Source: an uncultured virus (IMG/VR IMGVR_UViG_3300030109_004543) (Duplodnaviria > Heunggongvirae > Uroviricota > Caudoviricetes). Taken from it: a stretch of 20,000 nt of DNA. Position 1 is the first letter of the stretch. Each line of letters begins with the position of its first letter. The stretch lies in the IMG/VR virus record IMGVR_UViG_3300030109_004543; one strand, 5' to 3'. This document shows positions 4,805-20,000 of this stretch, piece by piece. The position numbers were made by a program, and so were the translations under genes. The notes beneath the pieces are model-generated. The model was not told the origin of the DNA. It searched no databases and saw only the letters and a program-made list of their open reading frames with translations.

Positions 4805-4821
4805 AGTATACAGAGGTACTT

Positions 4822-7065: not shown

Positions 7066-7076
7066 TGAAGGGGTTT

Positions 7077-7105: not shown

Positions 7106-7158
7106 GTATGCAAAGAAATTTAAAAATATTTATTACACAATAGATTGGGAGAATTGAA

Positions 7159-8328: not shown

Positions 8329-8329
8329 T

Positions 8330-8794
8330 ATGGATAAGGCAGAGTTATTTTTAAATGAATTAGAATCATTATTAGGTCGTTACTTTGATACAGATTGGAA
8401 CTACGATTTTGATTTTGATAAACCTATAACAATAGATGTTCCTATACAAGCTGACGATAAATTAGATACACAATTGTACAGTAGGAATTTACCTAAAAGT
8501 AGAAACTCACACAAGCAACTTCATTGTGCTAGTTGTAATTGTCGTGATCCAAGACTGACAGACGAAGAATATAATTCTATAATAGATGAGTTAATTGAGG
8601 AAGGTTATGAATCACAAACTTGTGATCTAGCTAATGAATGGGCATACTCAAGTTATCTATTGCAGGATAGAGATGAAGCTATCGAACATGGTTATCTTAT
8701 TATTTATTGTGAAGAATGCAGTAACGAGTTAAGATATGATTGTGATGATTATGATGTTCCTATCTGTGATAGTTGTTTAGAAAAAAAGGAGTAA
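8330..8794 (+). CDS. Acidic Cys-rich (Zn-binding) hypothetical protein
   Basis: SD GAGG; HCASCNC, CEEC, CDSC. Confidence 0.75.
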   Translation: MDKAELFLNELESLLGRYFDTDWNYDFDFDKPITIDVPIQADDKLDTQLYSRNLPKSRNSHKQLHCASCNCRDPRLTDEEYNSIIDELIEEGYESQTCDLANEWAYSSYLLQDRDEAIEHGYLIIYCEECSNELRYDCDDYDVPICDSCLEKKE

Positions 8795-8797
8795 AGT

Positions 8798-9151
8798 ATG
8801 GTTAGTATATTTGATAGATTAATACAGAAACTAAAAAGAAGAAAGGCTAGGTATGGGGAAAGAGGTTACGAATCAAAACCTTTTAAAATGGGTAGAGTAG
8901 ATACTTGGGATTACTATGATGATGTGGAAAGAAGAATAACTGTAATAGTAAATACAATAGTACATGATGATGAGGAAGTTTATGATACAGAAGACTCTGA
9001 ATCAAGAATAGTAACTGATGTTTACATATCACCACTAGGTTGTGATTTAAAGAATGAAAGCATTCATGATTACATGGAACAACTTGATGTATCAAGCTGT
9101 GATTGTAAAGGGGAATGCTATGATGTAGAAAAAGGATTGACAGGTAATTAA
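8798..9151 (+). CDS. Hypothetical protein
   Basis: SD AAGGAG; CDCKGEC. Confidence 0.75.
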   Translation: MVSIFDRLIQKLKRRKARYGERGYESKPFKMGRVDTWDYYDDVERRITVIVNTIVHDDEEVYDTEDSESRIVTDVYISPLGCDLKNESIHDYMEQLDVSSCDCKGECYDVEKGLTGN

Positions 9152-9339
9152 TGGAAGATAATATAGAGTATACTAATTTCTTGAATCACTTTGGGCATGA
9201 TGTATTCATAGTTAAGTATGGAACTGTGGAAGAGAATGGAAAAACCTATCCTTTAAATATAGCCCTTGAATGCGAAGATTGTAATGAAGTCATTGAATCG
9301 TATGACAGAGATGAAAGGAAATGGAAAGTATATATTTGA
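9151..9339 (+). CDS. Small Zn-ribbon-like protein
   Basis: HFGHD…NIALECEDCNEVI. Confidence 0.75.
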   Translation: MEDNIEYTNFLNHFGHDVFIVKYGTVEENGKTYPLNIALECEDCNEVIESYDRDERKWKVYI

Positions 9340-9364
9340 CAAACAAATAAAAGTAGTATAGAAT
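9336..9364 (+). promoter_or_regulatory. Sigma70-type promoter driving the 9371-9493 RNA candidate
   Basis: TTGACA-17-TAGAAT. Confidence 0.8.
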
Positions 9365-9370
9365 ATAAAT

Positions 9371-9493
9371 AGGTAGTAGGAACATTGCCCAACTATGAGT
9401 CGTGTTATAAAAAGTAATTTATGTAACATTGGCAAAATTTCTCACTATGGTATCAATATGATATTTAGGAATATTAATAAGAACCTATTGCCT
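9371..9493 (+). ncRNA. Candidate ~123-nt structured small RNA
   Basis: Begins at the expected TSS; AGGTAGTAGG pairs with CCTATTGCCT; nested TTGCC/GGCAA, GTGTTATA/TGTAACAT, GGTATCA/TGATATT; no + strand ORF in track. Confidence 0.55.
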
Positions 9494-9497
9494 TGAT

Positions 9498-9526
9498 TTG
9501 ACAAACAAATAAAAGTAGTATAGACT
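9498..9526 (+). promoter_or_regulatory. Sigma70-type promoter of the glycosylase gene
   Basis: TTGACA-17-TAGACT. Confidence 0.8.
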
Positions 9527-9545
9527 TACAGGGAAGGAGTCAATA

Positions 9546-10322
9546 ATGCAAACATTTATGCCTTATGGCAATTACGAAAAAGTAGCACAGACATTAGATT
9601 ATAGAAGATTAGGTAAGCAACGAGTAGAAGGTATGCAGACCCATAATCAATTAACTAAAGGTAAAGGTGGATATAAGTATCACCCTATTAATACTATGTG
9701 GGTAGGTTACGAATCATCTTTAGCCGAGTATACAAATGCTATGATAAAAGAATGGATTGATCGTGGCTACAATAATACTATGGAATATATTAAATGTTGT
9801 GATGACCCTTCGCATAAACAAATCACTTGTTATTGTCCCTACCATGCAAATCATGAAATGCCTTTTTGGGCAGACCATTCTAATTTGAATAAATCTCATC
9901 AAGCTAATTTACTACGAAAAGACTTTGAGTATTATAGTAATCATTTTGATAATACTATTGATGTTAGTATGCCTTACTTGTGGTGGAGTAAAGAAGAAAT
10001 GGATTTAGAAGAACTATATAAAACATTAACAATAGATGACCTTCGTTATCAATACATTGATGTATACCCAAAAGGTTTTGATGTTCAACAAGTTAATGAT
10101 AAATTAAATGTATGTAATGAATGTGGAATCATTGTTATATCTGAAACAGAACTGTATTGGCAAGATGACTTTGGTGGTGGATATTGGCATGAAGGAATGT
10201 ATCAAAAGGAAGCTACTGCTCTATGTGATGATTGTCATCATAGGTTTTGTACACCTGTTAAATACAAAAAAACTAGACAAGATATAAAAAATGGTTTATT
10301 ATTATGTAATGAGGAAGTATAA
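9546..10322 (+). CDS. Pyrimidine-dimer DNA glycosylase/endonuclease V-like (MSMEG_6728-type) protein with C-terminal Zn-ribbon extension
   Basis: MQTFMPY…LDYRRLGKQRVE…HPINTMWVGYE…SHQANLLRKD…PYLW; extra ~110 aa with CNEC/CDDC. Confidence 0.8.
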   Translation: MQTFMPYGNYEKVAQTLDYRRLGKQRVEGMQTHNQLTKGKGGYKYHPINTMWVGYESSLAEYTNAMIKEWIDRGYNNTMEYIKCCDDPSHKQITCYCPYHANHEMPFWADHSNLNKSHQANLLRKDFEYYSNHFDNTIDVSMPYLWWSKEEMDLEELYKTLTIDDLRYQYIDVYPKGFDVQQVNDKLNVCNECGIIVISETELYWQDDFGGGYWHEGMYQKEATALCDDCHHRFCTPVKYKKTRQDIKNGLLLCNEEV

Positions 10323-10703
10323 ATGTTTTTAAATAGAAGTGAAGCCTATAGATATTTTGAATATAATTGTGAAGACTACTTTGAAGAGGTAGATGTCTGT
10401 AGTAATTGTGAGTCTTGGGAAGTAGGACATTTAAAATTAGTAAATCCTAATAGTGATGTTTATGATTTTGATATAGACTATAGCTTCTCTTGGTGTAAAA
10501 ACTGTGAAGACATTGGTTATATGGATATAAAAAGTATACCTTATAAAGAACTTAAAGAGAAACAGTATCCTTACGAAAGGAATAACATGGAAGACTTACT
10601 CAATTTAAAACGATTCTTGCCAAAACTAGAGAAAGATTATATAATGTTAAGGACAGATGAGTTTATAAAGCAACATAATAAATGGAATGCTCATGAAGAA
10701 TAA
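10323..10703 (+). CDS. Zn-binding hypothetical protein
   Basis: CSNC…WCKNC. Confidence 0.75.
   Translation: MFLNRSEAYRYFEYNCEDYFEEVDVCSNCESWEVGHLKLVNPNSDVYDFDIDYSFSWCKNCEDIGYMDIKSIPYKELKEKQYPYERNNMEDLLNLKRFLPKLEKDYIMLRTDEFIKQHNKWNAHEE
10617..10645 (+). promoter_or_regulatory. Intragenic sigma70-type promoter
   Basis: TTGCCA-17-TATAAT. Confidence 0.55.
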
Positions 10704-10753
10704 AATATATCAAGGAACAGGGAAAAACAATTTAACTGTGCGAGGTGTGAAAT

Positions 10754-11083
10754 ATGAATAATTTAGAAAGCTTTACAGATTTTCATAAAAGGAAACGAAA
10801 GGATTGTATTGAGTCTTTGGATTCAATGTATGCAGAACATTATGGTGGTCTTGAAGAAACAGAATTTGTAACAGACCTTGTAGCTGATTTAATGCATTGG
10901 GCAAAAGCAAATAAAATATATGATTTCAATCTTTATATTGAAAGAGCAAAGAGTTATCATAATATAGAATGGGAAGAAGATAGAGAAGAGTGGAATGAGA
11001 AACAGGAAGGGGAACAACTTGAATTAGAATTAAGAGATAAGAATGGTCATCTTAGTGAAGACTTTATCTCAGAAGATGAATAG
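10754..11083 (+). CDS. Hypothetical phage protein
   Basis: SD GAGGTG; VTDLVADLMHWA helical motif. Confidence 0.8.
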   Translation: MNNLESFTDFHKRKRKDCIESLDSMYAEHYGGLEETEFVTDLVADLMHWAKANKIYDFNLYIERAKSYHNIEWEEDREEWNEKQEGEQLELELRDKNGHLSEDFISEDE

Positions 11084-11087
11084 ACAT

Positions 11088-11116
11088 TTGACAACAAATT
11101 ATTATTGGTATAAACT
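11088..11116 (+). promoter_or_regulatory. Sigma70-type promoter
   Basis: TTGACA-17-TAAACT; next ATG 6 nt downstream, so possibly a leaderless mRNA. Confidence 0.8.
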
Positions 11117-11122
11117 AGAAGA

Positions 11123-11326
11123 ATGAATATTAAAAAAGTAAATTGGTATAACGAAGAACTAGATGAATTCTATGATGAAGACAAGGATAACAATGGCTAC
11201 ATCTATGGAATATATTTCTATGATAACGAAGTTGAAAATCACACAGAAGTAGAGTGGTTTAAAACATTGGAAGAAAGAGATAGAGAATTCGATATATTAA
11301 ATTCAAAAAACATTGAAATAATGTAA
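11123..11326 (+). CDS. Small acidic protein
   Basis: ORF track; GYIYGIY…VEWFKTLEER. Confidence 0.75.
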   Translation: MNIKKVNWYNEELDEFYDEDKDNNGYIYGIYFYDNEVENHTEVEWFKTLEERDREFDILNSKNIEIM

Positions 11327-11337
11327 AGGATAATTAA

Positions 11338-11643
11338 ATGGTTTATGATATAGATACAGATATAGAGAATGCTAGTAGAGAAGCACATAAAATATTATAT
11401 GGGTCAGAGATAGTAGGGGCAAGATATTTGTCTAAAGAAGAAGCTAATGATTTAGGGTGGTATAAAAGTGGATTAGTTTTATGGTTAAAGACTAAAGAAG
11501 GGAATACAATACAAATGATTGTTCAACAAGATGATGAAGGAAACGATAGTGGTGTTCTTGGATATCAAATATGGGAAGATTACCTTGACGACAAGAAAAG
11601 AAAAAAGATAAAAGAAGATTTATTTTATAGCATACATATATAA
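11338..11643 (+). CDS. Hypothetical phage protein
   Basis: SD AAGGA; YLSKEEA…LGW…QDDEGNDSG. Confidence 0.8.
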   Translation: MVYDIDTDIENASREAHKILYGSEIVGARYLSKEEANDLGWYKSGLVLWLKTKEGNTIQMIVQQDDEGNDSGVLGYQIWEDYLDDKKRKKIKEDLFYSIHI

Positions 11644-11654
11644 GGAAGGTACTT

Positions 11655-12002
11655 ATGGCACAACATTATGATATACAAAACTTTAGGAAAGAAAATCCTA
11701 ACTTTGATAAATGGTATCCAAAGCTAGAGAAATCAATTCAGCATTGGTTAAATTATTTAAATCTATCTCATATGAAAAGTTACAGATCACTTCATATCGT
11801 TAATAAAAGTGTAACTATAATGCCACAAGAAGACTTAGAGAAAGGAAACTCTGAATTTAATGAAGGAAGTAATATTATTTTTCGATACACTTCCCCTATC
11901 AAAACTAGACTATGGTTTGACCAAGAAGATAAAGTATGCGATAATATGTTTGAAGTGCATGGATTGGATAGGGAAATAAAGAAAATATATTTGGTAGCAT
12001 AA
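11655..12002 (+). CDS. Hypothetical protein
   Basis: SD AAGGAAGG. Confidence 0.75.
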   Translation: MAQHYDIQNFRKENPNFDKWYPKLEKSIQHWLNYLNLSHMKSYRSLHIVNKSVTIMPQEDLEKGNSEFNEGSNIIFRYTSPIKTRLWFDQEDKVCDNMFEVHGLDREIKKIYLVA

Positions 12003-12064
12003 GATAAACTACCAAAGAAATTTATAAATGTTTATCAAAATGTTTATGGATTACTAAATTAATA

Positions 12065-12151
12065 GCAAGGGTCGAAAGTTAGTTACTCGTAAAGTTTATT
12101 TTAATGTTTAATCAAATTCATTTAAATATTCAGATTAGCTAACTTCCTTGT
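12065..12151 (+). ncRNA. Candidate end-closed RNA, unit A (87 nt)
   Basis: GCAAGG/CCTTGT plus AAGTTAGTTA/TAGCTAACTT with a 5-nt bulge; weak TTATCA-17-TAAATT upstream. Confidence 0.5.
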
Positions 12152-12164
12152 AAATAGAAAATAA

Positions 12165-12306
12165 AAGAGTAACTAGTTAAAACTTTATAAACATTAATAA
12201 TTGGAACTTATTTGAATTGGGTATAAAGGAAATGGGGATTAAATCAATCAGCGAATTGATATCTTTATTAGGAAATGGAAAAGCCTATATTTAACTAGCT
12301 ACTCTT
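12165..12306 (+). ncRNA. Candidate end-closed RNA, unit B (142 nt)
   Basis: AAGAGTAACTAGTTAAA (12165-12181) pairs at 16/17 positions with TTTAACTAGCTACTCTT (12290-12306). Confidence 0.5.
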
Positions 12307-12311
12307 AAAAG

Positions 12312-12340
12312 TTGACAATGTTATTTATAGATGGTATACT
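12312..12340 (+). promoter_or_regulatory. Sigma70-type promoter, extended -10
   Basis: TTGACA-17-TATACT with TGn. Confidence 0.85.
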
Positions 12341-12366
12341 ATAATAAATTAAATAAGAGGAAACAA

Positions 12367-12660
12367 ATGAATAATAGAAACATGACAGTAATAGATGAAA
12401 TTCTAAAATGTGAAACAACAGATGAAGTGAACAATATCATTGATGATATAAACTCAGCTCTTAGAACTGTGAAGAATAAAATTAATGGTAGAGCAAGGTT
12501 TGATTTTTCTGTAGGGGATAAAGTATTAGTAAACGAAAGGAATGGAAGAAAATCAGAAGGGGAAATTCTAAAGATTAACAGAACAAGAGCAAAAGTAAGA
12601 ATGAATGGAATCACTTATAATGTTCCATTTAATATTATGCAATTACAGGAAGCTATTTAA
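12367..12660 (+). CDS. KOW/SH3-like domain protein
   Basis: SD GAGG; FSVGDKVLV…GEILKINRTRAKV…YNVP. Confidence 0.75.
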   Translation: MNNRNMTVIDEILKCETTDEVNNIIDDINSALRTVKNKINGRARFDFSVGDKVLVNERNGRKSEGEILKINRTRAKVRMNGITYNVPFNIMQLQEAI

Positions 12661-12887
12661 TGAGTGAATTTAACACATGGTTAACTAATACATTAACACA
12701 TTATAATGTTGAACAAGAATGGCATGAAGAATATGCCAAGCAACATAAATTAAAATGTAACATACTTGATTGTAATCCAAAGGATTTAACACAAGTACAT
12801 CACGATTGGTTTGATTCCGATACAGGATTGATAGATGAAAACCAAAAATTAGCAATGGAAATTCTATTTAAAATAAGCAGTAAATAA
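12660..12887 (+). CDS. Hypothetical protein
   Basis: TAATG coupling. Confidence 0.7.
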   Translation: MSEFNTWLTNTLTHYNVEQEWHEEYAKQHKLKCNILDCNPKDLTQVHHDWFDSDTGLIDENQKLAMEILFKISSK

Positions 12888-13247
12888 ATGAGTGGAAATA
12901 GTTACAATACAGAATGTCCTTATTGCCACTCAGAAATGGAAACATATTCAGATTGGAAACCATACGAAGCTACAAATCATCAATGTCTAGAATGTGGTTG
13001 GTTTACAATTACAATAGAAGGAAGATATAGCTTGGAAGAAGTAAACGAAATTAGAAGCGAATATGAATATAGTAAACCACTAAAGGAATTAAAGAAGATA
13101 GATTTTGAAGAGAAGAAAACAAAAGCAAGTAAGGTACTTGACAACATTAAGATATACTTAGATAATAATAAAGATTCGCATATAACTGCTTATATGTTAA
13201 TAAATTTTATCTACAGTCAAGAATTAAAGGTAACAGAATGGAACTAA
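12888..13247 (+). CDS. Zn-ribbon protein
   Basis: CPYC…CLECG. Confidence 0.75.
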   Translation: MSGNSYNTECPYCHSEMETYSDWKPYEATNHQCLECGWFTITIEGRYSLEEVNEIRSEYEYSKPLKELKKIDFEEKKTKASKVLDNIKIYLDNNKDSHITAYMLINFIYSQELKVTEWN

Positions 13248-13537
13248 TAAGAGAAGCAAAGATTAAAGATATCTATGGAAGAGTAAATCATGAATATGAT
13301 TACTTTAATTCAGAGAGTGGTGAGTGGGAAGAATACCAAACACTTTCCCATTGTTGTTTTGCTACAGTATCTTTTACTGATTTCTGTGGAAGTTGTTATG
13401 ATCATTGTAGTATTGAATGTAATCATTGTGGTGTAACAGGGGATATAAGTGGTTGTCCATTTCATTTGTCTACTATGTCAGAAACTTTAAATAGCGATAA
13501 CTATTCAAAATATTATGTAAGTGAGCATTGGGATTAA
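13238..13537 (+). CDS. Cys-rich hypothetical protein
   Basis: SHCC…CGSCYDHC…CNHC…CPFH. Confidence 0.7.
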   Translation: MELIREAKIKDIYGRVNHEYDYFNSESGEWEEYQTLSHCCFATVSFTDFCGSCYDHCSIECNHCGVTGDISGCPFHLSTMSETLNSDNYSKYYVSEHWD

Positions 13538-13899
13538 TGATTAAAGTTAATGATACAGTAAGAATAAAAAACGATAAGACTTATAGCTATTCAAAACTAT
13601 GGAAAGTAATAGCAGTTAAAGATGATAAAGTTGCTTGTGAATTAAGAATAAGTGAAATTGAAGTCCTTAGAAAATCGTTTGACAAATCAAAAATACAAGT
13701 GTATATTAAACAGAATGATGAGTGGATAATAGGAAACACTTTAAAAAATAAGACTTATCAAGTATACTTTTTTGGTGGGGCAATTGAATTGTATGAAGGT
13801 AGTAGTGAAGAAGAAATTGATGAATACTTGGAAGATAATTGGAAAGAAATAACAGATAATCTTTCATGGAATATAGAAGCCGAAATAGAAGAGAGATAA
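13537..13899 (+). CDS. Hypothetical protein, SH3-like N-terminus
   Basis: TAATG coupling; IKVNDTVRIK. Confidence 0.7.
   Translation: MIKVNDTVRIKNDKTYSYSKLWKVIAVKDDKVACELRISEIEVLRKSFDKSKIQVYIKQNDEWIIGNTLKNKTYQVYFFGGAIELYEGSSEEEIDEYLEDNWKEITDNLSWNIEAEIEER
13679..13707 (+). promoter_or_regulatory. Intragenic sigma70-type promoter
   Basis: TTGACA-17-TATATT. Confidence 0.55.
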
Positions 13900-13901
13900 A
13901 A

Positions 13902-14195
13902 ATGGGAAAGATAACAGAAATAGATTTAGTAGAACAAGTAGGAAGGAATAGGAAAGCATTAGAAATGCATTTATCAGCTAATTTCTATCCTAGACACCCA
14001 AGCTATGTAGAAGAGTCTACTCTTAAAGGATTTGAACTCTATTGGAAAGGGGAACTAGGAATAGTGGAACTAGCTAAGTATTGCTATTTAAATGACTACT
14101 ACGATTTATATAAATACTATGAATCTTTTTTGAATGACGAAGATGTAGAATTCGAGAGAGATTTAATTCACGAAGATTTAGAATTTGACAATTAA
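13902..14195 (+). CDS. Hypothetical phage protein
   Basis: LEMHLSANFYPRHP motif; ORF track start 13866. Confidence 0.75.
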   Translation: MGKITEIDLVEQVGRNRKALEMHLSANFYPRHPSYVEESTLKGFELYWKGELGIVELAKYCYLNDYYDLYKYYESFLNDEDVEFERDLIHEDLEFDN

Positions 14196-14213
14196 TGAGA
14201 TTTAGTATAATAT
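14185..14213 (+). promoter_or_regulatory. Sigma70-type promoter
   Basis: TTGACA-17-TAATAT (TATAAT at 15-bp spacing). Confidence 0.7.
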
Positions 14214-14246
14214 ATAAGTAATACAAATTAAAACGAGTAAATAAAA

Positions 14247-14717
14247 ATGAGTGGAATAGAAGATATAATTAATAATGAAGATTGGTCAGAGAAATTTGAT
14301 GACATCACAGGTAAAGACTTGGCAAAAGAAATGGAAGTTTTTTGTGATAAAGTTATGGAAACTAATAAAGAGATACTAAGTAAAGATATATTTTCTTCTG
14401 AACATTCTCAATTTTTATTTGACAGAGTAGAAAACGAAATACGAAGCTTTTCTACTTATCATCAGATAAAAGGATTAATTCTATCTAGTGATTTTGAATC
14501 AGCTAAAAGAAAAGTTATGAAAGATACAGGTATGGAAGAGAGAACATTTAACAGGATTATGAATAATGGTCGTATGCTAGAAACAATGGTTATCTTCCCT
14601 AGAGTGTCTGAATATTGTGCCGAAGTATTTAAAATATCTATAGACTTTAAAGATGAAGATGTAGACAAATTATATAAAGATGTATTTGGGAAGGAAAAAG
14701 ATAATGATGAATCCTAA
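14247..14717 (+). CDS. Hypothetical helical acidic protein
   Basis: ORF track. Confidence 0.75.
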   Translation: MSGIEDIINNEDWSEKFDDITGKDLAKEMEVFCDKVMETNKEILSKDIFSSEHSQFLFDRVENEIRSFSTYHQIKGLILSSDFESAKRKVMKDTGMEERTFNRIMNNGRMLETMVIFPRVSEYCAEVFKISIDFKDEDVDKLYKDVFGKEKDNDES

Positions 14718-14943
14718 TCCAAAAGTTAAACCTACAACATTAAAAGCTGAAATATCAATTCAGTTAGACCATGACCCATACAACATAGAAACAGTAGAAC
14801 TTGACATTGAGAAATCTGACGATTATACTATGGGTATGACTTTGTTAAAGATGTTTCAAGGCATTGTTACTGAACTTGTAACTAATGAATCGCCTTGTGA
14901 TGATAACGAAGCTACTTTAAAAATTACTTTGTTTAGAGGATAA
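14704..14943 (+). CDS. Hypothetical protein
   Basis: SD AAGGA; ORF track start 14680. Confidence 0.65.
   Translation: MMNPNPKVKPTTLKAEISIQLDHDPYNIETVELDIEKSDDYTMGMTLLKMFQGIVTELVTNESPCDDNEATLKITLFRG
14801..14829 (+). promoter_or_regulatory. Intragenic sigma70-type promoter
   Basis: TTGACA-17-TATACT. Confidence 0.6.
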
Positions 14944-14948
14944 ATAAA

Positions 14949-15452
14949 ATGAAAGCAAAAGATATAAGAATTGGGGATTTAATAGAATTTGAGTATACAG
15001 TAAGAATAAAATATGACGAAGATAGTAAACCACTAATTGAAGGAACTGATGAAATAAAACTAAAAAAAGGTTTAGTTACAGGAAAGGAAGACCTAAGACT
15101 AGTTACTATTCGAGATGAAGATAAAAATTCTTCTACATATATGCAATATATTAAATATGATGAATTGTACATGAAAGACATACATGAAGTATTAGAATTA
15201 TCTAAACCTTTAACTGATAGAGAAAAAGATATTATAAACTTCTATGAAAATCATATTTCTGATATCTATAGTACAGTAGAAGATGAACTACAAACTGCAA
15301 GGGGATTAATAGATGAACTTAGCTATCAAATAACTAGTGTTGAAAATGAAGTAGTTGGGGATATGCAAGAAAGGTTAATTGAACATTTAGAAGAACAAGA
15401 AGCCGAAGAAAGAAGAAAGTCAATACAAGATATAGTAGGGAAGGATAAATAA
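14949..15452 (+). CDS. Hypothetical protein with coiled-coil C-terminus
   Basis: SD GAGGA; MKAKDIRIGDLI N-terminus. Confidence 0.75.
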   Translation: MKAKDIRIGDLIEFEYTVRIKYDEDSKPLIEGTDEIKLKKGLVTGKEDLRLVTIRDEDKNSSTYMQYIKYDELYMKDIHEVLELSKPLTDREKDIINFYENHISDIYSTVEDELQTARGLIDELSYQITSVENEVVGDMQERLIEHLEEQEAEERRKSIQDIVGKDK

Positions 15453-15679
15453 TGGGTTGGTATTCAGACGAGTGTTTACAGATAACTGATTCATTTGAAT
15501 TTGATTATAAGAATGATACAAATTTAAGACATCTTTTTACAGGTAGTGATCAAACACCTACAGACATATGGATATTAAATAAGAAAAAAGAATGTCTACT
15601 TAGAATGAAAGGTGTGTATAATGGAATGGCAAGAGAAGTACAAGAGTTAGAAAAGAACTTGAAAAGGAATTCAAGATGA
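15452..15679 (+). CDS. Hypothetical protein
   Basis: TAATG coupling; SD AAGGA. Confidence 0.7.
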   Translation: MGWYSDECLQITDSFEFDYKNDTNLRHLFTGSDQTPTDIWILNKKKECLLRMKGVYNGMAREVQELEKNLKRNSR

Positions 15680-15909
15680 AAGTAAAAGATTGGGAACTAG
15701 ACTTCAGTACAAAAGTGGGGGATAGAGTAAAGATTATTGGAACTAAAACAATAGGAACAGTAATAGAAGATAAGGAAGACACTCAAGTAATAGAAGTAGA
15801 AAATCATTGGTGTGATTATTGGAAGAGAAGATATACAATGACAGGAGAATATAAAAAGGATAGACTTAGGAAGGTAGTATACTTCTATCTATATAGAAAT
15901 GATTTATAA
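15676..15909 (+). CDS. KOW/SH3-like small protein
   Basis: KVGDRVKIIGTKTIGTVIE. Confidence 0.7.
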   Translation: MKVKDWELDFSTKVGDRVKIIGTKTIGTVIEDKEDTQVIEVENHWCDYWKRRYTMTGEYKKDRLRKVVYFYLYRNDL

Positions 15910-15920
15910 AAAGACATTCA

Positions 15921-15960
15921 ATGTATTCAAATGTATCTAAATGTATCTTAATATGTCCTA
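15921..15960. repeat. 10-bp period tandem repeat (ATGTATTCAA ATGTATCTAA ATGTATCTTA ATATGTCCTA)
   Basis: Direct inspection. Confidence 0.7.
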
Positions 15961-15989
15961 AAATAGAACTAAAGGAAACTAGTTGACAA

Positions 15990-16352
15990 ATGACCATCAA
16001 GGAAGTAATTAATAGAACTATGTATAGCATAAAGACCTATCTGTTGGATTATCCTTTCCAAAGCATAAAGGAAGGAATATGGGAAAGGGATAGGAAAAGC
16101 TTGGAAGTATCACTAGCTTTGTGTACTAATCCTTATGTATCATCTTGTTGTAAATATGATGTGTATACTTGGAGTATTTCTGATAAGGTAGAAGACTTGG
16201 AACTGCTGGAATGGTTGAGAAAAGGTGGAAGGCTTGGAAGCAAGTTGTTAGGTAAGTATGATTCCTTTAGTATATGCTTTAAGTGTAGGCTATGGTGTGG
16301 TTTATTAGAAGATAACTTCTTTACTTTTTCCCACGAATCTGATACTATATAG
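15990..16352 (+). CDS. Cys-containing hypothetical protein (uncertain)
   Basis: SSCC…CFKCRLWC resembles the 13238 ORF motif; weak SD. Confidence 0.45.
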   Translation: MTIKEVINRTMYSIKTYLLDYPFQSIKEGIWERDRKSLEVSLALCTNPYVSSCCKYDVYTWSISDKVEDLELLEWLRKGGRLGSKLLGKYDSFSICFKCRLWCGLLEDNFFTFSHESDTI

Positions 16353-16494
16353 ATACCCTTTAAGAAAAGAATAAAAGTATAGGTTTCTTAATATATCTTA
16401 ACTTTACTTTGTTCTGACTATTAAAGGTAATAAATTTGAGAAAGGTACTCTGTTATATTGTCCTTAAAATAAACTGAAAAATTATATTACACAG

Positions 16495-16523
16495 TTGACA
16501 GGGTATCTGAAAAATGATAAGAT
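16495..16523 (+). promoter_or_regulatory. Sigma70-type promoter, extended -10
   Basis: TTGACA-17-TAAGAT with TGn. Confidence 0.8.
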
Positions 16524-16529
16524 ATAAAT

Positions 16530-16605
16530 GTCTTGTTAAGTAGAGATAATTCATAACTCTCTTGAAATTAGTTTGAAGTCATCTACCAAAACTACTTGAC
16601 AAGGC
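16530..16605 (+). ncRNA. Candidate 76-nt end-closed small RNA
   Basis: Starts at the expected TSS; GTCTTGTTAAGTAG pairs over 14 bp (2 G-U) with CTACTTGACAAGGC. Confidence 0.55.
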
Positions 16606-16624
16606 TTTAAAATTAATATATAAT
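16596..16624 (+). promoter_or_regulatory. Perfect-consensus sigma70 promoter
   Basis: TTGACA-17-TATAAT. Confidence 0.9.
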
Positions 16625-16630
16625 ACTATT

Positions 16631-16950
16631 AATCGATCTTTTAAAACTGAATATAACTTATAGTAGAAATACTAAGGAAACAAAGAGATTAATTCTCTCT
16701 GATGATAGAGCCTGTACACAAAGTTAATTGATTAGCAATGTGAGGGATTTTGATAGAAGTTGTTATATATACTAGTTAGTATAGTAACATTGCTATCCCT
16801 TCCCCACTAGCCCACTTCTTACGATAGAGATGTATCTTGAAACTAGTAATTCTTTGGGATTGCATGAACCTTAAACTATAGACAAAGAGACCTTTGCGAA
16901 GTACAAGCGAACTCTTAAAGTTATATTCTTAATTTGTTTTTAAGACGATT
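16631..16950 (+). ncRNA. Candidate ~320-nt highly structured non-coding RNA with boxA-like leader and terminal stalk
   Basis: Bounded by a consensus promoter and an intrinsic terminator; no + strand ORF of 60 aa or more; nested long-range pairings and internal hairpins (see findings). Confidence 0.7.
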
Positions 16951-16952
16951 GG

Positions 16953-17011
16953 AAAGGGAAGGATAAGTAGACCTCTTGCTTAAAGCTTGATAATACTTAC
17001 CTTCCTTTTTT
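16953..17011 (+). terminator. Intrinsic terminator of the large RNA candidate
   Basis: GGAAGG(A)TAAGTA / TACTTACCTTCC stem followed by TTTTTT. Confidence 0.75.
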
Positions 17012-17032
17012 ATTGCTTCTAAACCCAATTCT

Positions 17033-17068
17033 TTGTGAAATAATTCACTATCAAAAATAGACATGATA
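17033..17068. promoter_or_regulatory. Rex/CRP-like palindrome plus TAGACATGATA box (cassette copy 1)
   Basis: TTGTGAA-ataa-TTCACTA (17033-17050); TAGACATGATA 17058-17068. Confidence 0.7.
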
Positions 17069-17163
17069 TAAGATAATTGGAAAAGCTTGGAAGTAGGAAA
17101 GGGTAAAGAACAGAATAACATATAATAGCCTCTATCACCTACTTGACAATATAAAACAGGGGG

Positions 17164-17193
17164 TTGACAATAAGATATCATCCATAGTATACT
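17164..17193 (+). promoter_or_regulatory. Sigma70-type promoter of the GP88-like gene
   Basis: TTGACA-18-TATACT; extra TTGACA 21 bp upstream (17143). Confidence 0.75.
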
Positions 17194-17223
17194 AGTTATA
17201 TATTAAATTAAAAGGTGTGTTAA

Positions 17224-17949
17224 ATGAAACTATTACATTTCTCAAGAGAAAACAAGAAGTTAGAAAAACTAGCTTTAGAAGTCTATTCCAAACAAGGTAT
17301 ATATCCCCAAGTATATTCTGTTTCTATTCCTAGTGGTAGAGCTGAAACTTGCCCATATGCTGATAAGTGTAAAGCTTATGTAGGTAGTGACGGCAAATTA
17401 GTTAAAGATGATGAGTACATAGATTATCGATGTTATTCGGCTAGTATGGAAGCAGTTTATCCGGCCCAATTAAAATCAAGAGATTATAACTTTGATTTAT
17501 TAAAAGACTGTAATAATGATGTACAAGAATTAACCACTTTAATAAATGCTTCAATTCCTATCGAAGCCCACATAATAAGAATTCATGTAGGTGGAGACTT
17601 CTACAGTCAACCCTATTTTGATGCTTGGTTAAATGTTGCAATGTTAAATCCACATAGACAATTCTATAGCTATACTAAGTCTTTGCCATTTTGGGTAAAT
17701 AGATTAAGTAGTATAGATGTTGGAAACTTCCCAAACATGGAGCTAATAGCAAGTCGTGGAGGTAAGAAGGATAAGTTAATAGATGAGTACGGATTAAAGG
17801 AAGCAGTAGTAGTATACAAAGAGAAGGAAGCAGAAGACAAAGGATTGGAAATAGACTATACTGATTACCTTGCTTGTTATGGGAAGGAATCATTTGCTTT
17901 ATTAATTCATGGGGTACAACCTAAAAGAATAAATCAATTAATGAAATAA
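17224..17949 (+). CDS. GP88-family phage protein (Cys-cluster, radical-SAM-like)
   Basis: N.KL…SIPSG…TCPYA..C…CYSA…IRIHVGGDFYS..Y…W…FYSYTKS motif order recalled for GP88. Confidence 0.75.
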   Translation: MKLLHFSRENKKLEKLALEVYSKQGIYPQVYSVSIPSGRAETCPYADKCKAYVGSDGKLVKDDEYIDYRCYSASMEAVYPAQLKSRDYNFDLLKDCNNDVQELTTLINASIPIEAHIIRIHVGGDFYSQPYFDAWLNVAMLNPHRQFYSYTKSLPFWVNRLSSIDVGNFPNMELIASRGGKKDKLIDEYGLKEAVVVYKEKEAEDKGLEIDYTDYLACYGKESFALLIHGVQPKRINQLMK

Positions 17950-17958
17950 TACAAGACT

Positions 17959-18003
17959 AGGAAGGGTAAGACTCAACACACCTTTTACCCTTCCTTTTAT
18001 TTT
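17959..18003 (+). terminator. Intrinsic terminator, homologous to the 16953 terminator
   Basis: AGGAAGGGTAAG / TTTACCCTTCCT followed by TTTATTTT. Confidence 0.85.
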
Positions 18004-18021
18004 ACCTATTTTCCTAATTCT

Positions 18022-18057
18022 TTGTGAAAGATTTCACGATATCTTGTATCATGTCTA
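18022..18057. promoter_or_regulatory. Rex/CRP-like palindrome plus inverted TAGACATGATA box (cassette copy 2)
   Basis: TTGTGAA-agat-TTCACGA (18022-18039); TATCATGTCTA 18047-18057. Confidence 0.7.
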
Positions 18058-18206
18058 AATTTAAAGAAGTGTAGGAAGGAAACTTTGGAAGGCAGGAAGT
18101 AGCAGGGGCGTAAAGCAGGAACGGAAAGGGGCTATTTTTGACAATTTTAAGACGCTACTTGACAAATTCTATCACCTATTTATCACCTACTTGACAATAA
18201 TGGGGG

Positions 18207-18235
18207 TTGACATAATGTCAACACTAATGTAAGCT
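18207..18235 (+). promoter_or_regulatory. Sigma70-type promoter with palindromic -35
   Basis: TTGACA-17-TAAGCT; GTTGACA-taa-TGTCAAC (18206-18222); extra TTGACA at 18138, 18159, 18191. Confidence 0.75.
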
Positions 18236-18267
18236 ATGTACATACTCAAATTCAAAGAGAGAAAAAA

Positions 18268-18777
18268 ATGAGATTAGAAGATTTATTAAATCAAATAGAA
18301 GGCACTTCCTATAAGAATTCTAAAGCCTTTAAAGAACAAGATCAGAAAATCAGAAAGTTATTTAAAAGCTATAGAGATAGACATATTGAAGCAACTAAAA
18401 AAAGTCCATCTTTTAATAGTGATATGCACGAACATATTATTGAATTAGCTTTTAGTACATCAGCTGAAATTTATGATTACTTTAGAGTAAAGCTAGAGTC
18501 TGAAAAAAATAATGTTTCTTTAATAGATATAATTACAGAAAAATCTAAAGATTGGGCAGAGAAAGATCAACTAGATTTTATTCGTACAGTATCACATGGA
18601 AAATTAATATTTCATCAATTAGTGTTACCTGTAATAGTTGAACATTTTATGAATGTCTTTGATCAGCAACTAGACGATAATAGTCTAATTAATCTAACTG
18701 ATAGTATATCAGAACAAGAACTAGAAGATGATCTTAATGATACTCTTAGAGATATTAGAGATAAAAAAGATATATAA
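18268..18777 (+). CDS. Hypothetical helical protein
   Basis: ORF track, 169 aa. Confidence 0.75.
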   Translation: MRLEDLLNQIEGTSYKNSKAFKEQDQKIRKLFKSYRDRHIEATKKSPSFNSDMHEHIIELAFSTSAEIYDYFRVKLESEKNNVSLIDIITEKSKDWAEKDQLDFIRTVSHGKLIFHQLVLPVIVEHFMNVFDQQLDDNSLINLTDSISEQELEDDLNDTLRDIRDKKDI

Positions 18778-18785
18778 AATAGTGA

Positions 18786-18814
18786 TTGAATTAGTTGACA
18801 ATTTATTATATAAT
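18786..18814 (+). promoter_or_regulatory. Sigma70-type promoter
   Basis: TTGAAT-17-TATAAT, with a TTGACA inside the spacer. Confidence 0.7.
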
Positions 18815-18846
18815 ATCTACATAAAGTAAATTCATTAGGGGAAATT

Positions 18847-19263
18847 ATGAATAGAATATGTACTACAAAGGCTAAAGAAATAATTAATAATTCAAATGGT
18901 AAATTCCTTAGTCTTGAGTGGATTAAAATTGATGGCACTTATAGAAGTATGGTTGCTAGAAATAAAGTTACTAAGTATTCAAATGGGGGATATTTAAGAT
19001 ATAATCTTGAAGATCACGATTTAATATTATTAGTAGATGTAAGCCTAGCTAAGAAGTATAAAAAAGGTATACTAGATAAGAATGGTAAAACAAGAAAACC
19101 ATTTGTACAAGTAAAGTATAAGAACCTTAAAAAATTAACTTATCAAGGTATTGTTAATGATGTACTTCAATGTGCTTATGATATAAAAGAAAATGAATCA
19201 AATTCAAATTTCGGTGGTTGTTTCTCTTGTGAAATAAGCCATCATAAAAAAGGTCATTCATAG
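18847..19263 (+). CDS. SH3-like beta-barrel phage protein (WYL_2/DUF2693-like) with CxxC/His tail
   Basis: GKFLSLEWIKIDGTYRSM pattern; tail CFSC..SHH...H. Confidence 0.6.
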   Translation: MNRICTTKAKEIINNSNGKFLSLEWIKIDGTYRSMVARNKVTKYSNGGYLRYNLEDHDLILLVDVSLAKKYKKGILDKNGKTRKPFVQVKYKNLKKLTYQGIVNDVLQCAYDIKENESNSNFGGCFSCEISHHKKGHS

Positions 19264-19272
19264 ACCTTCTCC

Positions 19273-19302
19273 TTGAATTAATATATTGAGTTTGATTACA
19301 AT
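19273..19302 (+). promoter_or_regulatory. Sigma70-type promoter directly before a terminator hairpin
   Basis: TTGAAT-18-TACAAT. Confidence 0.5.
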
Positions 19303-19311
19303 ATAAAGATT

Positions 19312-19349
19312 GGCTGATATTGTTGCGTTCAGTATCAGCCTTTCTTTTT
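19312..19349 (+). terminator. Intrinsic terminator
   Basis: GGCTGATATTG-ttgcgtt-CAGTATCAGCC then TTTCTTTTT. Confidence 0.9.
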
Positions 19350-19367
19350 GCTTCAAATCCATATTCT

Positions 19368-19438
19368 TAGTGAAATAAATCACAAGCTATCTTTAGACAT
19401 GATACCGGATAATTTAAGTTATTAGGTCTCATGTCTAA
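19368..19438. promoter_or_regulatory. Rex/CRP-like palindrome plus inverted pair of TAGACATGA boxes (cassette copy 3)
   Basis: TAGTGAA-ataa-ATCACAA (19368-19385); TTAGACATGA 19393-19402 and TCATGTCTAA 19429-19438. Confidence 0.7.
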
Positions 19439-19471
19439 TTTTCCTTGACCAAAATAATTGTCAAATTACTG

Positions 19472-19501
19472 TTGACAAATACAGTAGCTTCGTGGTAAGA
19501 T
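19472..19501 (+). promoter_or_regulatory. Sigma70-type promoter, extended -10, overlapped by a palindrome
   Basis: TTGACA-18-TAAGAT with TGn; TACTGT-N8-ACAGTA (19467-19486). Confidence 0.8.
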
Positions 19502-19531
19502 TAAATATTAATAACCAATAGGAGTACCTAT

Positions 19532-19756
19532 ATGGAAAGAGTAGTGAATAAGAAAGAAGATATAATTACATTAAGGATTGACCACTCGGATTGGAGTATG
19601 AATAGGATAGCAAAGGAAGTGGGGTGTACAAGGGAATATGTTAGATTAGTATTATTGGAAGTCGGATTGCCTACAGCAGTTGGTAATTGGGCTAAAGGGA
19701 ATATGAAATACCATGAAAGAAAAACTGAAAAAGACTTGACATTAACTAAGGCATAG
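19532..19756 (+). CDS. Small HTH DNA-binding protein (sigma70 region-4-like)
   Basis: SD AGGAG; WSMNRIAKEVGCTREYVRLVL. Confidence 0.75.
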   Translation: MERVVNKKEDIITLRIDHSDWSMNRIAKEVGCTREYVRLVLLEVGLPTAVGNWAKGNMKYHERKTEKDLTLTKA

Positions 19757-19764
19757 TGTAATCT
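19736..19764 (+). promoter_or_regulatory. Sigma70-type promoter
   Basis: TTGACA-17-TAATCT. Confidence 0.7.
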
Positions 19765-19798
19765 ATATACATTAAATAATAATTTCAAGGAGTATGTT

Positions 19799-20000
19799 TT
19801 GGAAAACTTAAATCCAACACCCCAAGAATTAAATGCATTTAGAAAACTAATGCAAAACCCCGAAATTGTAAATATGATTGAGCAATTTCAAGATGGTACT
19901 GTTAATCAGTATCCTACAAAAAAGAAAACAGAGAAACCAAAAGTTCAAAGTTCTTATAAAAGGAAATGGCTAACAGTTAAGGAAGTTGCAGAAATTAAAG
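19799..20000 (+). CDS. 5' part of a gene, probably an excisionase/MerR-like HTH protein (truncated by window)
   Basis: SD AAGGAG 19787-19792, TTG start; …KRKWLTVKEVAEIK typical of an HTH_17 helix. Confidence 0.6.
   Translation, partial: MENLNPTPQELNAFRKLMQNPEIVNMIEQFQDGTVNQYPTKKKTEKPKVQSSYKRKWLTVKEVAEIK

What the first reader, a model, noticed from the sequence alone, without database searches (positions are those of the whole stretch)
16596..17011. Large (~320-nt) phage ncRNA candidate organised like a miniature rRNA transcription unit
Seen: a perfect TTGACA-17-TATAAT promoter, second of a tandem pair. GATCTTTTAAAACTGAA (16635-16651) follows the TSS, then a TAGTA-GAAA-TACTA hairpin (16661-16674). 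Leader and trailer form a stalk: 16631-16640/16942-16950, 16643-16647/16936-16940 and a perfect 11-bp 16649-16659/16918-16928. Inner helices are TAAGG/CCTTA, CAAAGA(G)ATTA/TAATTCTTTG, and ACTAG/CTAGT (16806-16847), with hairpins at 16711-16745, 16752-16797 and 16885-16916. An intrinsic terminator follows, and there is no + strand ORF. Known: rrn leaders carry boxA (TCTTTGAAAACT-type in many Gram-positive lineages) and leader/trailer stalks cut by RNase III, and phages encode large orphan RNAs such as GOLLD and ROOL. It lacks tmRNA, RNase P and group I/II intron hallmarks by eye. Inference: an undescribed, abundant, Nus-assisted and processed structural RNA. This is the best novel-system candidate here, together with the smaller end-closed RNAs.
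Basis: partly seen in the sequence, partly recalled or inferred. Interest (0 to 1): 0.85.

Follow-up and report, generated by a model that had tools for sequence, protein, structure and literature searches.

The report
Conserved stable RNA of marine phage
An uncultured marine bacteriophage carries a promoter-to-terminator unit with no protein-coding frame that makes a folded RNA of roughly 300 bases, which turns up in ocean RNA surveys, matches no known RNA family and has no known job yet.

Summary
A perfect TTGACA-17-TATAAT promoter (16596-16624), an upstream partner promoter, an ORF-free stretch, a 26-bp leader/trailer stalk (16630-16659 with 16918-16951) and a long hairpin plus U-run terminator (16952-17010) are all present. 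Four metagenomic homologues keep the promoter-to-terminator block: only 2-4 of 318 columns differ outside two variable patches. In two of the four, the flanking intergenic DNA is only 42-45% identical, and both promoters keep their positions with diverged spacers. Contigs from 4 of 4 metatranscriptome runs laid (4 studies) lie wholly inside 16647-16962. No Rfam family, tRNA or tmRNA matches. Fifty records of related phages lack it.

So it is a real, expressed, conserved non-coding RNA gene of a narrow marine bacteriophage lineage. Its sequence is new and its function is unknown. The rRNA-operon analogy is only partly supported:
- tandem promoters and the stalk are real;
- processing within the stalk is a weak hint from contig ends;
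- the boxA match is at chance level (90 hits against 85.8 expected);
- three proposed inner helices are not supported.

Covariation is too scarce to prove the fold: 2 of 96 pairs change on both sides. My best guess is a trans-acting scaffold or decoy RNA made early in infection.

The parts
16495..16523 (+). Upstream promoter P1 (TTGACA-17-TAAGAT with an extended-10 TG)
   Evidence: Kept in L004 as TTGACA-17-TATAAT, 12/12. The leader between P1 and P2 is not conserved and carries indels.
16596..16624 (+). Main promoter P2 (TTGACA-17-TATAAT, 12/12). The inferred start is near 16631.
   Evidence: In L002/L004 the -35 and the 17-nt spacing are kept, the spacer sequence has diverged, and the -10 is TAAGAT preceded by TG.
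16630..16659 (+). 5' strand of the closing stalk. It contains the boxA-like motif at 16635-16651.
   Evidence: It is invariant in 5 of 5 sequences. The boxA match is at chance level.
16661..16674 (+). 5-bp hairpin with a GAAA loop
   Evidence: Pair probability is 0.91-0.96 in three alleles. Invariant.
16680..16717 (+). Variable patch 1, including the small hairpin 16685-16699
   Evidence: Together with patch 2, 28-29 of 70 columns differ from the four homologues. One both-sided change, G16687:C16697 to A:U, keeps the hairpin.
16723..16736 (+). Small hairpin. Its only variation, T16728C, is in the loop.
16740..16807 (+). Long central hairpin (three stacked helices), invariant. Its 3' strand starts the C-rich tract 16797-16822.
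   Evidence: Pair probabilities are 0.99 in all three alleles folded.
16813..16842 (+). Variable patch 2 (substitutions and indels)
   Evidence: An RNA contig of run X19 carries the variant patch 2 with the window-type patch 1.
16885..16916 (+). 3'-domain hairpin, invariant
   Evidence: pair probability 0.52-0.94.
16918..16951 (+). 3' strand of the closing stalk, with the U-run at 16937-16941
   Evidence: G16951A in L002/L004 turns a U-G pair into U-A.
16952..17010 (+). Intrinsic terminator: a long interrupted hairpin followed by a run of six T
   Evidence: pair probability 0.999. Conservation stops at 17010.
16647..16962 (.). Span covered by whole contigs of metatranscriptome runs
   Evidence: X15 covers 16650-16962 (313 nt, no differences). 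X16 covers 16647-16939. X17 covers 16657-16807 and 16794-16944. X19 covers 16657-16880 (a variant) and 16794-16944.

Best explanation
This is a stand-alone gene for a stable, folded, non-coding RNA of a marine tailed bacteriophage. It sits in the phage's cluster of early genes, which are read by the host's sigma-70 RNA polymerase.

Shown:
- Two tandem host-type promoters and a hairpin plus U-run terminator bracket a 380-nt block with no reading frame.
- The block is kept almost unchanged in relatives whose neighbouring DNA has diverged.
- About 16647-16962 of it is found as whole contigs in ocean RNA libraries.

Inferred:
- The transcript starts near 16631 and ends at 17010.
- Its two ends pair into a 26-bp stalk that closes a core of about six hairpins.
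- The stalk is cut, by RNase III or a similar enzyme. This removes the non-conserved leader of P1 transcripts and the terminator, and leaves a mature RNA of about 295-305 nt (roughly 16640/47 to 16939/44) with a paired, nuclease-resistant end.

Guessed mechanism, about 35-40% of my odds: the mature RNA acts in trans early in infection as a protein-binding scaffold or decoy for a host or phage factor. In that reading the invariant core is the binding surface and the two variable hairpins are peripheral.

I put about 0.85 on 'real, expressed, conserved ncRNA gene'. I put about 0.45 on maturation within the stalk. I put about 0.1 on Nus/boxA involvement. The overall confidence figure of 0.6 weights the identity claim together with the less certain maturation and mechanism.
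For: Anatomy:
- Promoters.
- No + ORF of 20 aa or more.
- Stalk and terminator in the MFE fold and the alignment consensus.
- Stalk energy reached by 9 of 2810 control segment pairs.

Selection on the transcript:
- Four homologues (L002, L003, L004, L006) differ at 2 of 318 (L006, L003) or 4 of 318 (L004, L002) columns outside two patches.
- The L002/L004 flanks are 42% (upstream) and 44-45% (downstream) identical in the intergenic DNA. They are 75-82% identical across neighbouring DNA, mostly genes.
- The conserved block begins just after the -10 and ends at the T-run.
- All changes outside the patches fall in loops or bulges, or keep a pair.
- Both promoters are retained with diverged spacers and swapped -10 types.

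RNA:
- 6 RNA runs of 5 studies hold 0.23-0.28 of the sampled words of 16400-17300.
- In 4 of 4 runs laid (4 studies), contigs of 151-313 nt lie entirely within 16647-16962. Four of the six are identical to the window.
- Contigs of two studies (X17, X19) start at 16657 and stop at 16944 with no loose end there, while DNA contigs L002-L006 run on.
- X16's contig, 16647-16939, has its ends facing each other in the stalk with a 3-nt 3' overhang. This is my inference.

Bacterial host:
- TTGACA occurs 27 times on the + strand and 3 times on the - strand, against 6 expected.
- A complete relative, G024, encodes bacterial-type RecA, a DnaB-like helicase, a Toprim primase and a sigma-70 region-4 protein.
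Against: - Structure is weakly proven. 86 of 96 consensus pairs never vary and only 2 change on both sides. 39 of 500 shuffles reach the observed covariation.
- The core without the terminator folds only at z = -2.68. 29 of 328 window segments of the same length fold as well.
- Contigs cannot give the strand, the ends or the level of an RNA. X15's contig runs to 16962, past the proposed 3' cut.
- No partner, target or ligand is known.
- No complementarity to 31.6 kb of the phage exceeds chance. The longest match is 13 nt, and shuffled RNAs reach 11-15.
- The family is narrow. 0 of 50 related phage records hold a homologue by BLAST or by the covariance model R1, including one complete genome. 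Most of these records are fragments.
- The host is unknown.
Confidence: 0.6

Rival explanations
1. It is a base-pairing regulator: an antisense or sponge RNA. Its accessible segments, such as the C-rich tract 16797-16822 or the variable hairpins, would pair with host or phage mRNAs or sRNAs. The variable patches would set target specificity.
For: A C-rich, G-poor tract sits in an AT-rich RNA (4 CCC against 1.2 expected). The two hypervariable patches assort independently, as specificity loops might. A strong terminator with a U-tail is typical of trans-acting sRNAs (recalled).
Against: The longest exact complementarity to the 31.6 kb of phage sequence at hand is 13 nt, within the range of shuffled RNAs (11-15). 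Much of the C-rich tract is predicted to be paired, with p = 0.99. At about 300 nt with an invariant multi-hairpin core, it is more elaborate than known base-pairing sRNAs. Three of four RNA contigs' 3' ends fall before the terminator. Host targets could not be tested because the host is unknown.
Confidence: 0.15
2. It is a cis-acting leader or attenuator. The C-rich segment 16796-16804 would compete with the terminator's 3' arm for its 5' arm (16951-16959), so a signal would switch read-through into the downstream GP88-family gene.
For: An inverted repeat of 9 nt, 89% complementary, joins 16796-16804 and 16951-16959.
Against: The alternative pairing has probability about 0 in the ensembles. 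The downstream gene has its own tandem promoters (17143 and 17164). About 210 nt separate it from the terminator, and that stretch is only 44-45% identical in L002/L004. No riboswitch or leader family matches. The RNA is found as a discrete piece.
Confidence: 0.07
3. The block is conserved for a DNA-level role, such as a replication origin, a packaging signal or a regulatory hub, and its transcript is incidental or serves as a primer.
For: The equivalent regions of relatives hold repeat arrays. There are six copies of a TGTGA-type palindrome and a C-rich array at the left end of G024, and four GAAGTTTTA repeats in G033. The same palindrome lies 22 nt after this terminator.
Against: Conservation starts and stops exactly at the transcript's inferred ends, not at the repeats. 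The block itself has no iterons. There is no turn in GC skew. It is recovered from RNA libraries as whole short contigs.
Confidence: 0.07
4. It is an archaeal-virus transcription unit. The TATAAT would be a TATA box about 27 nt before a start at about 16647, with termination at the oligo-T run 16937-16941, so the outer stalk and the hairpin terminator would not be part of the RNA.
For: In the phage collection, the portal and major capsid proteins hit only haloarchaeal tailed viruses and, for the capsid protein, one Methanofastidiosa virus: 8 records for the portal and 9 for the capsid protein. The contig ends (16647-16657; 16939-16944) fit this spacing.
Against: TTGACA shows a 27:3 strand bias with -10 hexamers at 16-18 nt. 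The spacing is preserved while the spacer diverges. Hairpin plus U-run terminators end the units. A complete relative has bacterial RecA, DnaB-like, Toprim and sigma-70 region 4 proteins. 16626-16646 and 16945-17010 are 100% conserved.
Confidence: 0.04
5. It is a decayed protein-coding gene left between promoter and terminator.
For: It occupies a slot built like the neighbouring protein-coding early units: tandem promoters, then cargo, then terminator, then palindrome.
Against: It is better conserved than the coding flanks. There is no frame of 20 aa or more. The 86-aa minus-strand ORF has no PHROG match and crosses DNA that diverges with indels.
Confidence: 0.02

Closest known systems
Bacterial rRNA operon architecture: tandem promoters, a boxA leader, and a leader/trailer helix cut by RNase III
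   Same: Tandem sigma-70 promoters kept in relatives. The 5' leader and 3' trailer pair into a long stalk that encloses a structured, untranslated RNA. Contig ends hint at maturation inside the stalk.
   Different: There is no sequence or Rfam relation to rRNA. The cargo is about 260 nt. The boxA-like motif is no better than chance and lies inside the stalk. The unit ends in a strong intrinsic terminator. Nus and RNase III involvement is untested.
GOLLD and ROOL, large orphan structured RNAs often found in phages and prophages (properties recalled, not from a call)
   Same: It is phage-borne, untranslated, elaborately folded and of unknown function.
   Different: No covariance-model match even at E<=10. 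It is about half their size or less. It is not next to tRNA genes. Multimer formation is untested.
Phage 'moron' cassettes: an independent promoter-cargo-terminator unit between genes (concept recalled)
   Same: It is a self-contained transcription unit with its own promoter and terminator. It is present in one sub-lineage and absent from 50 related records.
   Different: The cargo is an RNA, not a protein. The promoters evolve in place with the flanks rather than travelling with the cassette.
phi29 packaging RNA (pRNA) (recalled)
   Same: It is an early-promoter-driven, stable, structured phage RNA. Some hairpin sequences vary between relatives while the scaffold is kept.
   Different: No Rfam match. 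The phage family has a conventional large terminase. The two variable patches assort independently, unlike co-varying interlocking loops.
6S RNA and other protein-sequestering RNAs (recalled)
   Same: It is a stable RNA with paired ends, made from a strong promoter. A decoy role is my leading guess.
   Different: No Rfam match. The predicted shape is a multi-branched core, not a rod with a central bubble. GGA motifs are not enriched: 6 against 7.2 expected.

Membership tests
rRNA-operon-like (Nus-modified, RNase III-processed) transcription unit | Tandem promoters driving an untranslated RNA | tested here: met
   P1 is at 16495-16523 and P2 at 16596-16624. Both are kept in L004. There is no + ORF of 20 aa or more.
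rRNA-operon-like (Nus-modified, RNase III-processed) transcription unit | A leader/trailer helix enclosing the RNA | tested here: met
   26 bp in four segments. The energy is -17.3 kcal/mol, reached by 9 of 2810 controls. The helix is invariant, with one U-G to U-A change.
rRNA-operon-like (Nus-modified, RNase III-processed) transcription unit | A boxA element matching the host's consensus | tested here: inconclusive
   There are 2 mismatches to GYTCTTTAANA (PMC5725501, passages). That quality of match occurs 90 times against 85.8 expected. A looser core motif occurs 2 times against 2.67 expected. The host, and so its own consensus, is unknown.
rRNA-operon-like (Nus-modified, RNase III-processed) transcription unit | Cleavage of the stalk by RNase III; binding of NusB/NusE | not testable with these tools
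   There are only contig ends, at 16647-16657 and 16939-16962. Contigs cannot show RNA ends.
Any Rfam 15 family (including GOLLD, ROOL, 6S, RNase P, tmRNA, pRNA, group I/II introns, riboswitches) | A covariance-model score at or above the family's gathering score | tested here: not met
   There are 0 matches at gathering score in the window and in L002, L004, L097 and L099. At E<=10 there are only CRISPR-DR44 on the opposite strand (23 bits against 35), miRNA, snoRNA and plastid 3'UTR noise. ARAGORN found 0 genes.
RNA anti-CRISPR / solitary CRISPR repeat | A repeat-like hairpin on the transcribed strand that reaches the family score | tested here: not met
   The match is sub-threshold (E 0.21-0.53), on the minus strand only, at 16760-16787.
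Structured ncRNA proven by covariation | Significant compensatory substitutions in the helices | tested here: inconclusive
   2 of 96 pairs change on both sides. 86 never vary. 39 of 500 shuffles reach the observed score. There are only 4 distinct sequences.
Cis-regulatory terminator/antiterminator leader | Mutually exclusive pairings with comparable stability, and control of the downstream gene | tested here: not met
   The antiterminator pairing has probability about 0. The downstream gene has its own promoters.

The most novel reading that the evidence does not exclude
A new class of phage RNA built like a miniature rRNA transcription unit. Tandem strong promoters make a precursor whose leader/trailer stalk is cut by host RNase III. 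This releases a very stable RNA of about 300 nt, which serves early in infection as a scaffold or decoy for a host factor. Candidates are a ribosome-biogenesis, transcription-elongation or RNA-decay protein. The two swappable hairpins would tune specificity between phage strains.
Probability: 0.25. Interest if true: 0.8.

Novelty: new variant of a known kind. Interest (0 to 1): 0.62.

Why it matters
Few phage-encoded stable RNAs are understood, and large orphan RNAs from phages are among the main open puzzles in bacterial RNA biology (recalled). Unusually for a computational candidate, this one comes with independent evidence. Its conservation block coincides with the promoter and terminator. 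It is also recovered in RNA libraries of at least four ocean studies and in DNA of marine, subsurface and aquatic viral metagenomes.

It offers a compact (about 300 nt), clearly delimited RNA for structure probing and partner pull-downs. It is also a natural test of whether phages copy the rRNA way of making and maturing stable RNA.

Its reach is limited by a narrow known distribution (the window plus four contigs) and by an unknown host.

Tried and rejected
- Flanks in RNA runs. No contig of the four RNA runs lay on 15900-16646 or 16963-17700, apart from a 37-nt piece with 5 mismatches and loose ends in X19.
- Phage collection. BLAST of 16480-17220 and of 1-8000 found nothing.
- IMG/VR pattern scans with three RNA motifs. 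Two found nothing. The third gave 3 random GC-rich or unrelated hits.
- Genome collection pattern scan: 0 hits.
- Of the 5 metagenome hits, L005 was a chance match in GC-rich coding DNA and was dropped.
- Flanking proteins as bait in IMG/VR: no relatives.
- Related phages through the portal protein: 496 relatives, of which 80 were kept. I searched 50 of the 80, the longer records. No RNA homologue turned up by BLAST (two 21-23-nt chance hits) or by model R1 (best E 0.44). The other 30 are short pieces around the portal gene.
- Host. MAG bins holding relatives are labelled Alphaproteobacteria, Nitrosopelagicus, Daviesbacteria, Woesearchaeota and Chitinophaga. They are mutually inconsistent, so I drew no host from them.
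- Archaeal-virus reading: considered because, rejected.
- pRNA-like packaging role: a conventional large terminase is present in G024.
- CsrB-like sponge: GGA is not enriched.
- Internal antisense targets: none beyond chance.
- CTAG palindromes. There are three within 72 nt, but CTAG is not rare in the window (58 against 51 expected). This was a post hoc observation and I left it.
- Literature. Two full-text searches listed nothing describing this RNA. The library cannot be searched by sequence.
- Supplements of PMC10690425. I searched for five sample or contig prefixes of the records at hand in 6 files and found 0 occurrences. Three files could not be searched, so inclusion in that catalogue stays open.
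- Earlier notes of this scan: nothing relevant.

Full report
WHAT IS THERE

The 871-nt gap between the ORFs ending at 16352 and starting at 17224 has no + strand ORF of 20 aa or more. The four minus-strand ORFs found there are 29-86 aa. The longest has no PHROG match.

The scan finds a perfect TTGACA-17-TATAAT at 16596-16624, one of only two 12/12 sites in the window. A second promoter lies upstream at 16495-16523: TTGACA-17-TAAGAT with an extended-10 TG.

Folding 16631-17012 gives -94.8 kcal/mol, with z = -5.07 against 100 dinucleotide shuffles. The opposite strand gives z = -3.57. In this fold, and in the RNAalifold consensus of five sequences, the first 30 nt pair with 16918-16951 in four segments of 6, 4, 5 and 11 bp. 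A long interrupted hairpin at 16952-17010 follows directly and ends in six U. The stalk's duplex energy is -17.3 kcal/mol, matched by 9 of 2810 control segment pairs taken at the same spacing along the window.

Three proposed inner helices are not predicted. One of them, 16681-16691 with 16847-16856, loses two pairs without compensation in all four homologues.

CONSERVATION

One exact-pattern scan of the metagenome collection returned five loci. One, L005, is a chance match in GC-rich coding DNA. The other four, L002, L003, L004 and L006, are syntenic homologues.

- Outside two patches (16680-16717 and 16813-16842), 2 of 318 columns differ in L006 and L003, and 4 of 318 differ in L004 and L002.
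- Those changes are a loop base, a bulge, an unpaired base, one U of the U-run, and a U-G to U-A change in the stalk.
- In L002 and L004 the intergenic DNA is 42% identical upstream of 16626 and 44-45% identical downstream of 17010. Neighbouring DNA, mostly genes, is 75-82% identical.
- The conserved block starts just after the -10 hexamer and stops at the T-run.
- Both promoters survive in L004 at the same place relative to the block. Their spacers have diverged and their -10 types are swapped: P1 is TATAAT there and P2 is TG-n-TAAGAT.
- The leader between P1 and P2 is not conserved and differs by indels.

This is the pattern expected for selection on a transcript and its signals, not on the surrounding DNA.

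The two patches behave as swappable modules. L006 and L003 have flanks 99-100% identical to the window upstream, and 90-99% downstream, yet they carry the other patch alleles. One RNA contig combines the window's patch 1 with the variant patch 2.

EXPRESSION

Six RNA runs from five studies hold 0.23-0.28 of the sampled words of 16400-17300. Fourteen DNA runs (8 studies; marine, subsurface and aquatic viral metagenomes; one may be the source of this DNA) hold 0.59-1.00.

I laid four RNA runs from four studies on 15900-17700. The six contigs on the candidate are 151-313 nt long and lie wholly within 16647-16962:

| Run | Contig span | Note |
|---|---|---|
| X15 | 16650-16962 | identical to the window |
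| X16 | 16647-16939 | identical to the window |
| X17 | 16657-16807 and 16794-16944 | identical to the window |
| X19 | 16794-16944 | |
| X19 | 16657-16880 | variant: 7 differing letters and 3 gaps, per table 8 |

Contigs of X17 and X19, from two studies, start at 16657 and stop at 16944 with no loose end. The DNA contigs continue across these points. By the tool's own standard that is a weak hint of defined ends. Contigs give neither strand nor level. The + strand is inferred from the promoters, the terminator and the conservation limits.

PHAGE AND HOST

The window continues a viral record, G001, which carries ribonucleotide reductase, portal, SU10-type capsid and prohead protease genes. In the cultured-phage collection, the portal and capsid proteins hit only haloarchaeal tailed viruses and, for the capsid protein, one Methanofastidiosa virus. 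So I tested an archaeal reading, in which the TATAAT is a TATA box and the RNA ends at an oligo-T run. That reading happens to fit the contig ends. I reject it for four reasons:

- TTGACA occurs 27 times on the + strand and 3 times on the - strand, against 6 expected, usually with a -10-like hexamer 16-18 nt downstream.
- The units end in hairpin plus U-run terminators.
- A complete 71.5-kb relative, G024, encodes bacterial-type RecA, a DnaB-like helicase, a Toprim primase and a sigma-70 region-4 protein.
- G024 also has a conventional large terminase.

The host species remains unknown. MAG bins that contain relatives carry inconsistent labels.

THE BOXA CLAIM

The published gamma-proteobacterial consensus is GYTCTTTAANA (PMC5725501; I read the passages found for 'consensus' and the motif). 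The window's motif differs from it at two positions. Matches of that quality occur 90 times in the window against 85.8 +/- 9.3 in shuffles. A looser core motif occurs 2 times against 2.67 expected. The motif is invariant in all five sequences, but it lies in the stalk, which explains that equally well. The Nus reading is therefore unsupported. It is not excluded, because the host's own boxA is unknown.

HOW GOOD IS THE STRUCTURE

Moderate. Of 96 consensus pairs, 86 never vary, 2 change on both sides and 2 on one side; the other 6 depart only by unpaired cells. 39 of 500 shuffles reach the observed covariation. Without the terminator, the core folds at z = -2.68, and 1 of 100 shuffles does as well. 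Among the window's own segments, 12 of 327 (382 nt) and 29 of 328 (321 nt) fold at least as well.

These elements are robust across the three alleles folded: stalk segment S4 (p 0.998), the GAAA hairpin (0.91-0.96), the central hairpin 16740-16807 (0.99), the 3' hairpin 16885-16916 (0.52-0.94) and the terminator (0.999). The only clean compensatory change is G16687:C16697 to A:U, in a small hairpin of variable patch 1.

KNOWN FAMILIES

- No Rfam 15 family reaches gathering score in the window or in four related loci.
- At E<=10 only noise appears. The best is a CRISPR-repeat model on the opposite strand, at 23 bits against 35.
- There is no tRNA or tmRNA.
- The RNA is absent from 50 related phage records, both by BLAST and by a covariance model built here. 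Most of these are fragments. One is complete.
- In the complete relative, the region before the GP88-family gene instead holds a C-rich repeat array and six copies of a TGTGA-type palindrome. That palindrome also follows this RNA's terminator and two other terminators in the window.

MECHANISM

Shown: a promoter-to-terminator block under strong constraint, without a reading frame, and recovered from RNA libraries.

Inferred: transcription from P1 and P2 by host polymerase; closure of the RNA by the stalk; and removal of the variable P1 leader and the terminator by a cut in the stalk. That cut would yield about 16640/47 to 16939/44. In X16's contig, C16647 faces G16936, which leaves a 3-nt 3' overhang. 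This is close to the 2-nt overhang recalled for RNase III. However, X15's contig reaches 16962.

Guessed: a trans-acting scaffold or decoy for a protein during early infection.

I found no support for an antisense role inside the 31.6 kb of phage sequence at hand, for an attenuator, or for a CsrB-like sponge.

NOVELTY

This is a new RNA family by sequence, of a known general kind: stable structured phage RNAs of unknown function. Its rRNA-like build is its distinctive feature. Two literature searches and a partial supplement search of a catalogue of viral structured-RNA candidates turned up no description. None of these can be searched by sequence.

Noticed in passing
window 17000-17051, 17989-18040, 19335-19386; L097 465-860: A repeated module follows three terminators in the window: the terminator's 3' arm, a T-run, then a TGTGA-N6-TCAC-type palindrome. 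Six copies of the same palindrome stand in an array at the left end of the complete relative G024. It looks like a family-wide operator or iteron. A resemblance to CRP-type sites is recalled, not tested.
   Followed up: partly
L097 130-425 (record G024): A roughly 300-nt array of CCCCTCC-type repeats sits on the + strand at the genome end of the complete relative, just before the palindrome array. Its complement is G-run rich.
   Followed up: no
window 1-20000: TTGACA occurs 27 times on the + strand and 3 times on the - strand, against 6 expected. It is often in tandem (17143/17164; 18138, 18159, 18191, 18207) and often inside the 3' ends of upstream genes. This is a very dense array of host-type early promoters.
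   Followed up: partly
window 9334-9362 and 9496-9524: A 29-nt promoter-containing segment is duplicated exactly. It brackets about 130 nt with no long + ORF upstream of the pyrimidine-dimer glycosylase gene (9546-10322).
   Followed up: no
window 12003-12330: An ORF-free gap of about 330 nt has the lowest GC in the window (0.235 for 12001-12400). It lies upstream of a TG-extended promoter at 12312.
   Followed up: no
window 19141-19522: This intergenic module folds at -99 kcal/mol, z = -6.13, more strongly than the candidate RNA's core. It contains a terminator (19312-19340), the palindrome, and inverted copies of a GACATGA-type motif.
   Followed up: partly
L007 1831-3771 and 7946-9286: The portal and SU10-type capsid proteins find only haloarchaeal tailed viruses, plus one Methanofastidiosa virus for the capsid protein, among 50,697 phage records. 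Yet the family's replication and recombination genes are of bacterial type. At least 496 relatives exist in IMG/VR. This is a large uncultured marine phage family with no cultured relative.
   Followed up: partly
window 3373-3383: This is the only perfect match in the window to the published BoxA consensus GYTCTTTAANA. It lies inside the small ORF 3326-3481. It is probably chance.
   Followed up: no
L004 2790-2822 (minus strand); the same insertion in L002: The non-conserved leader between P1 and P2 carries a 29-nt insertion, absent from the window, that contains CACCTCC-like and CCTCC motifs.
   Followed up: no
L099 2640-2760 (record G033): Four GAAGTTTTA-type direct repeats lie in a 500-nt ORF-poor gap about 800 nt upstream of the GP88-family gene of another relative. 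They look like iterons.
   Followed up: no
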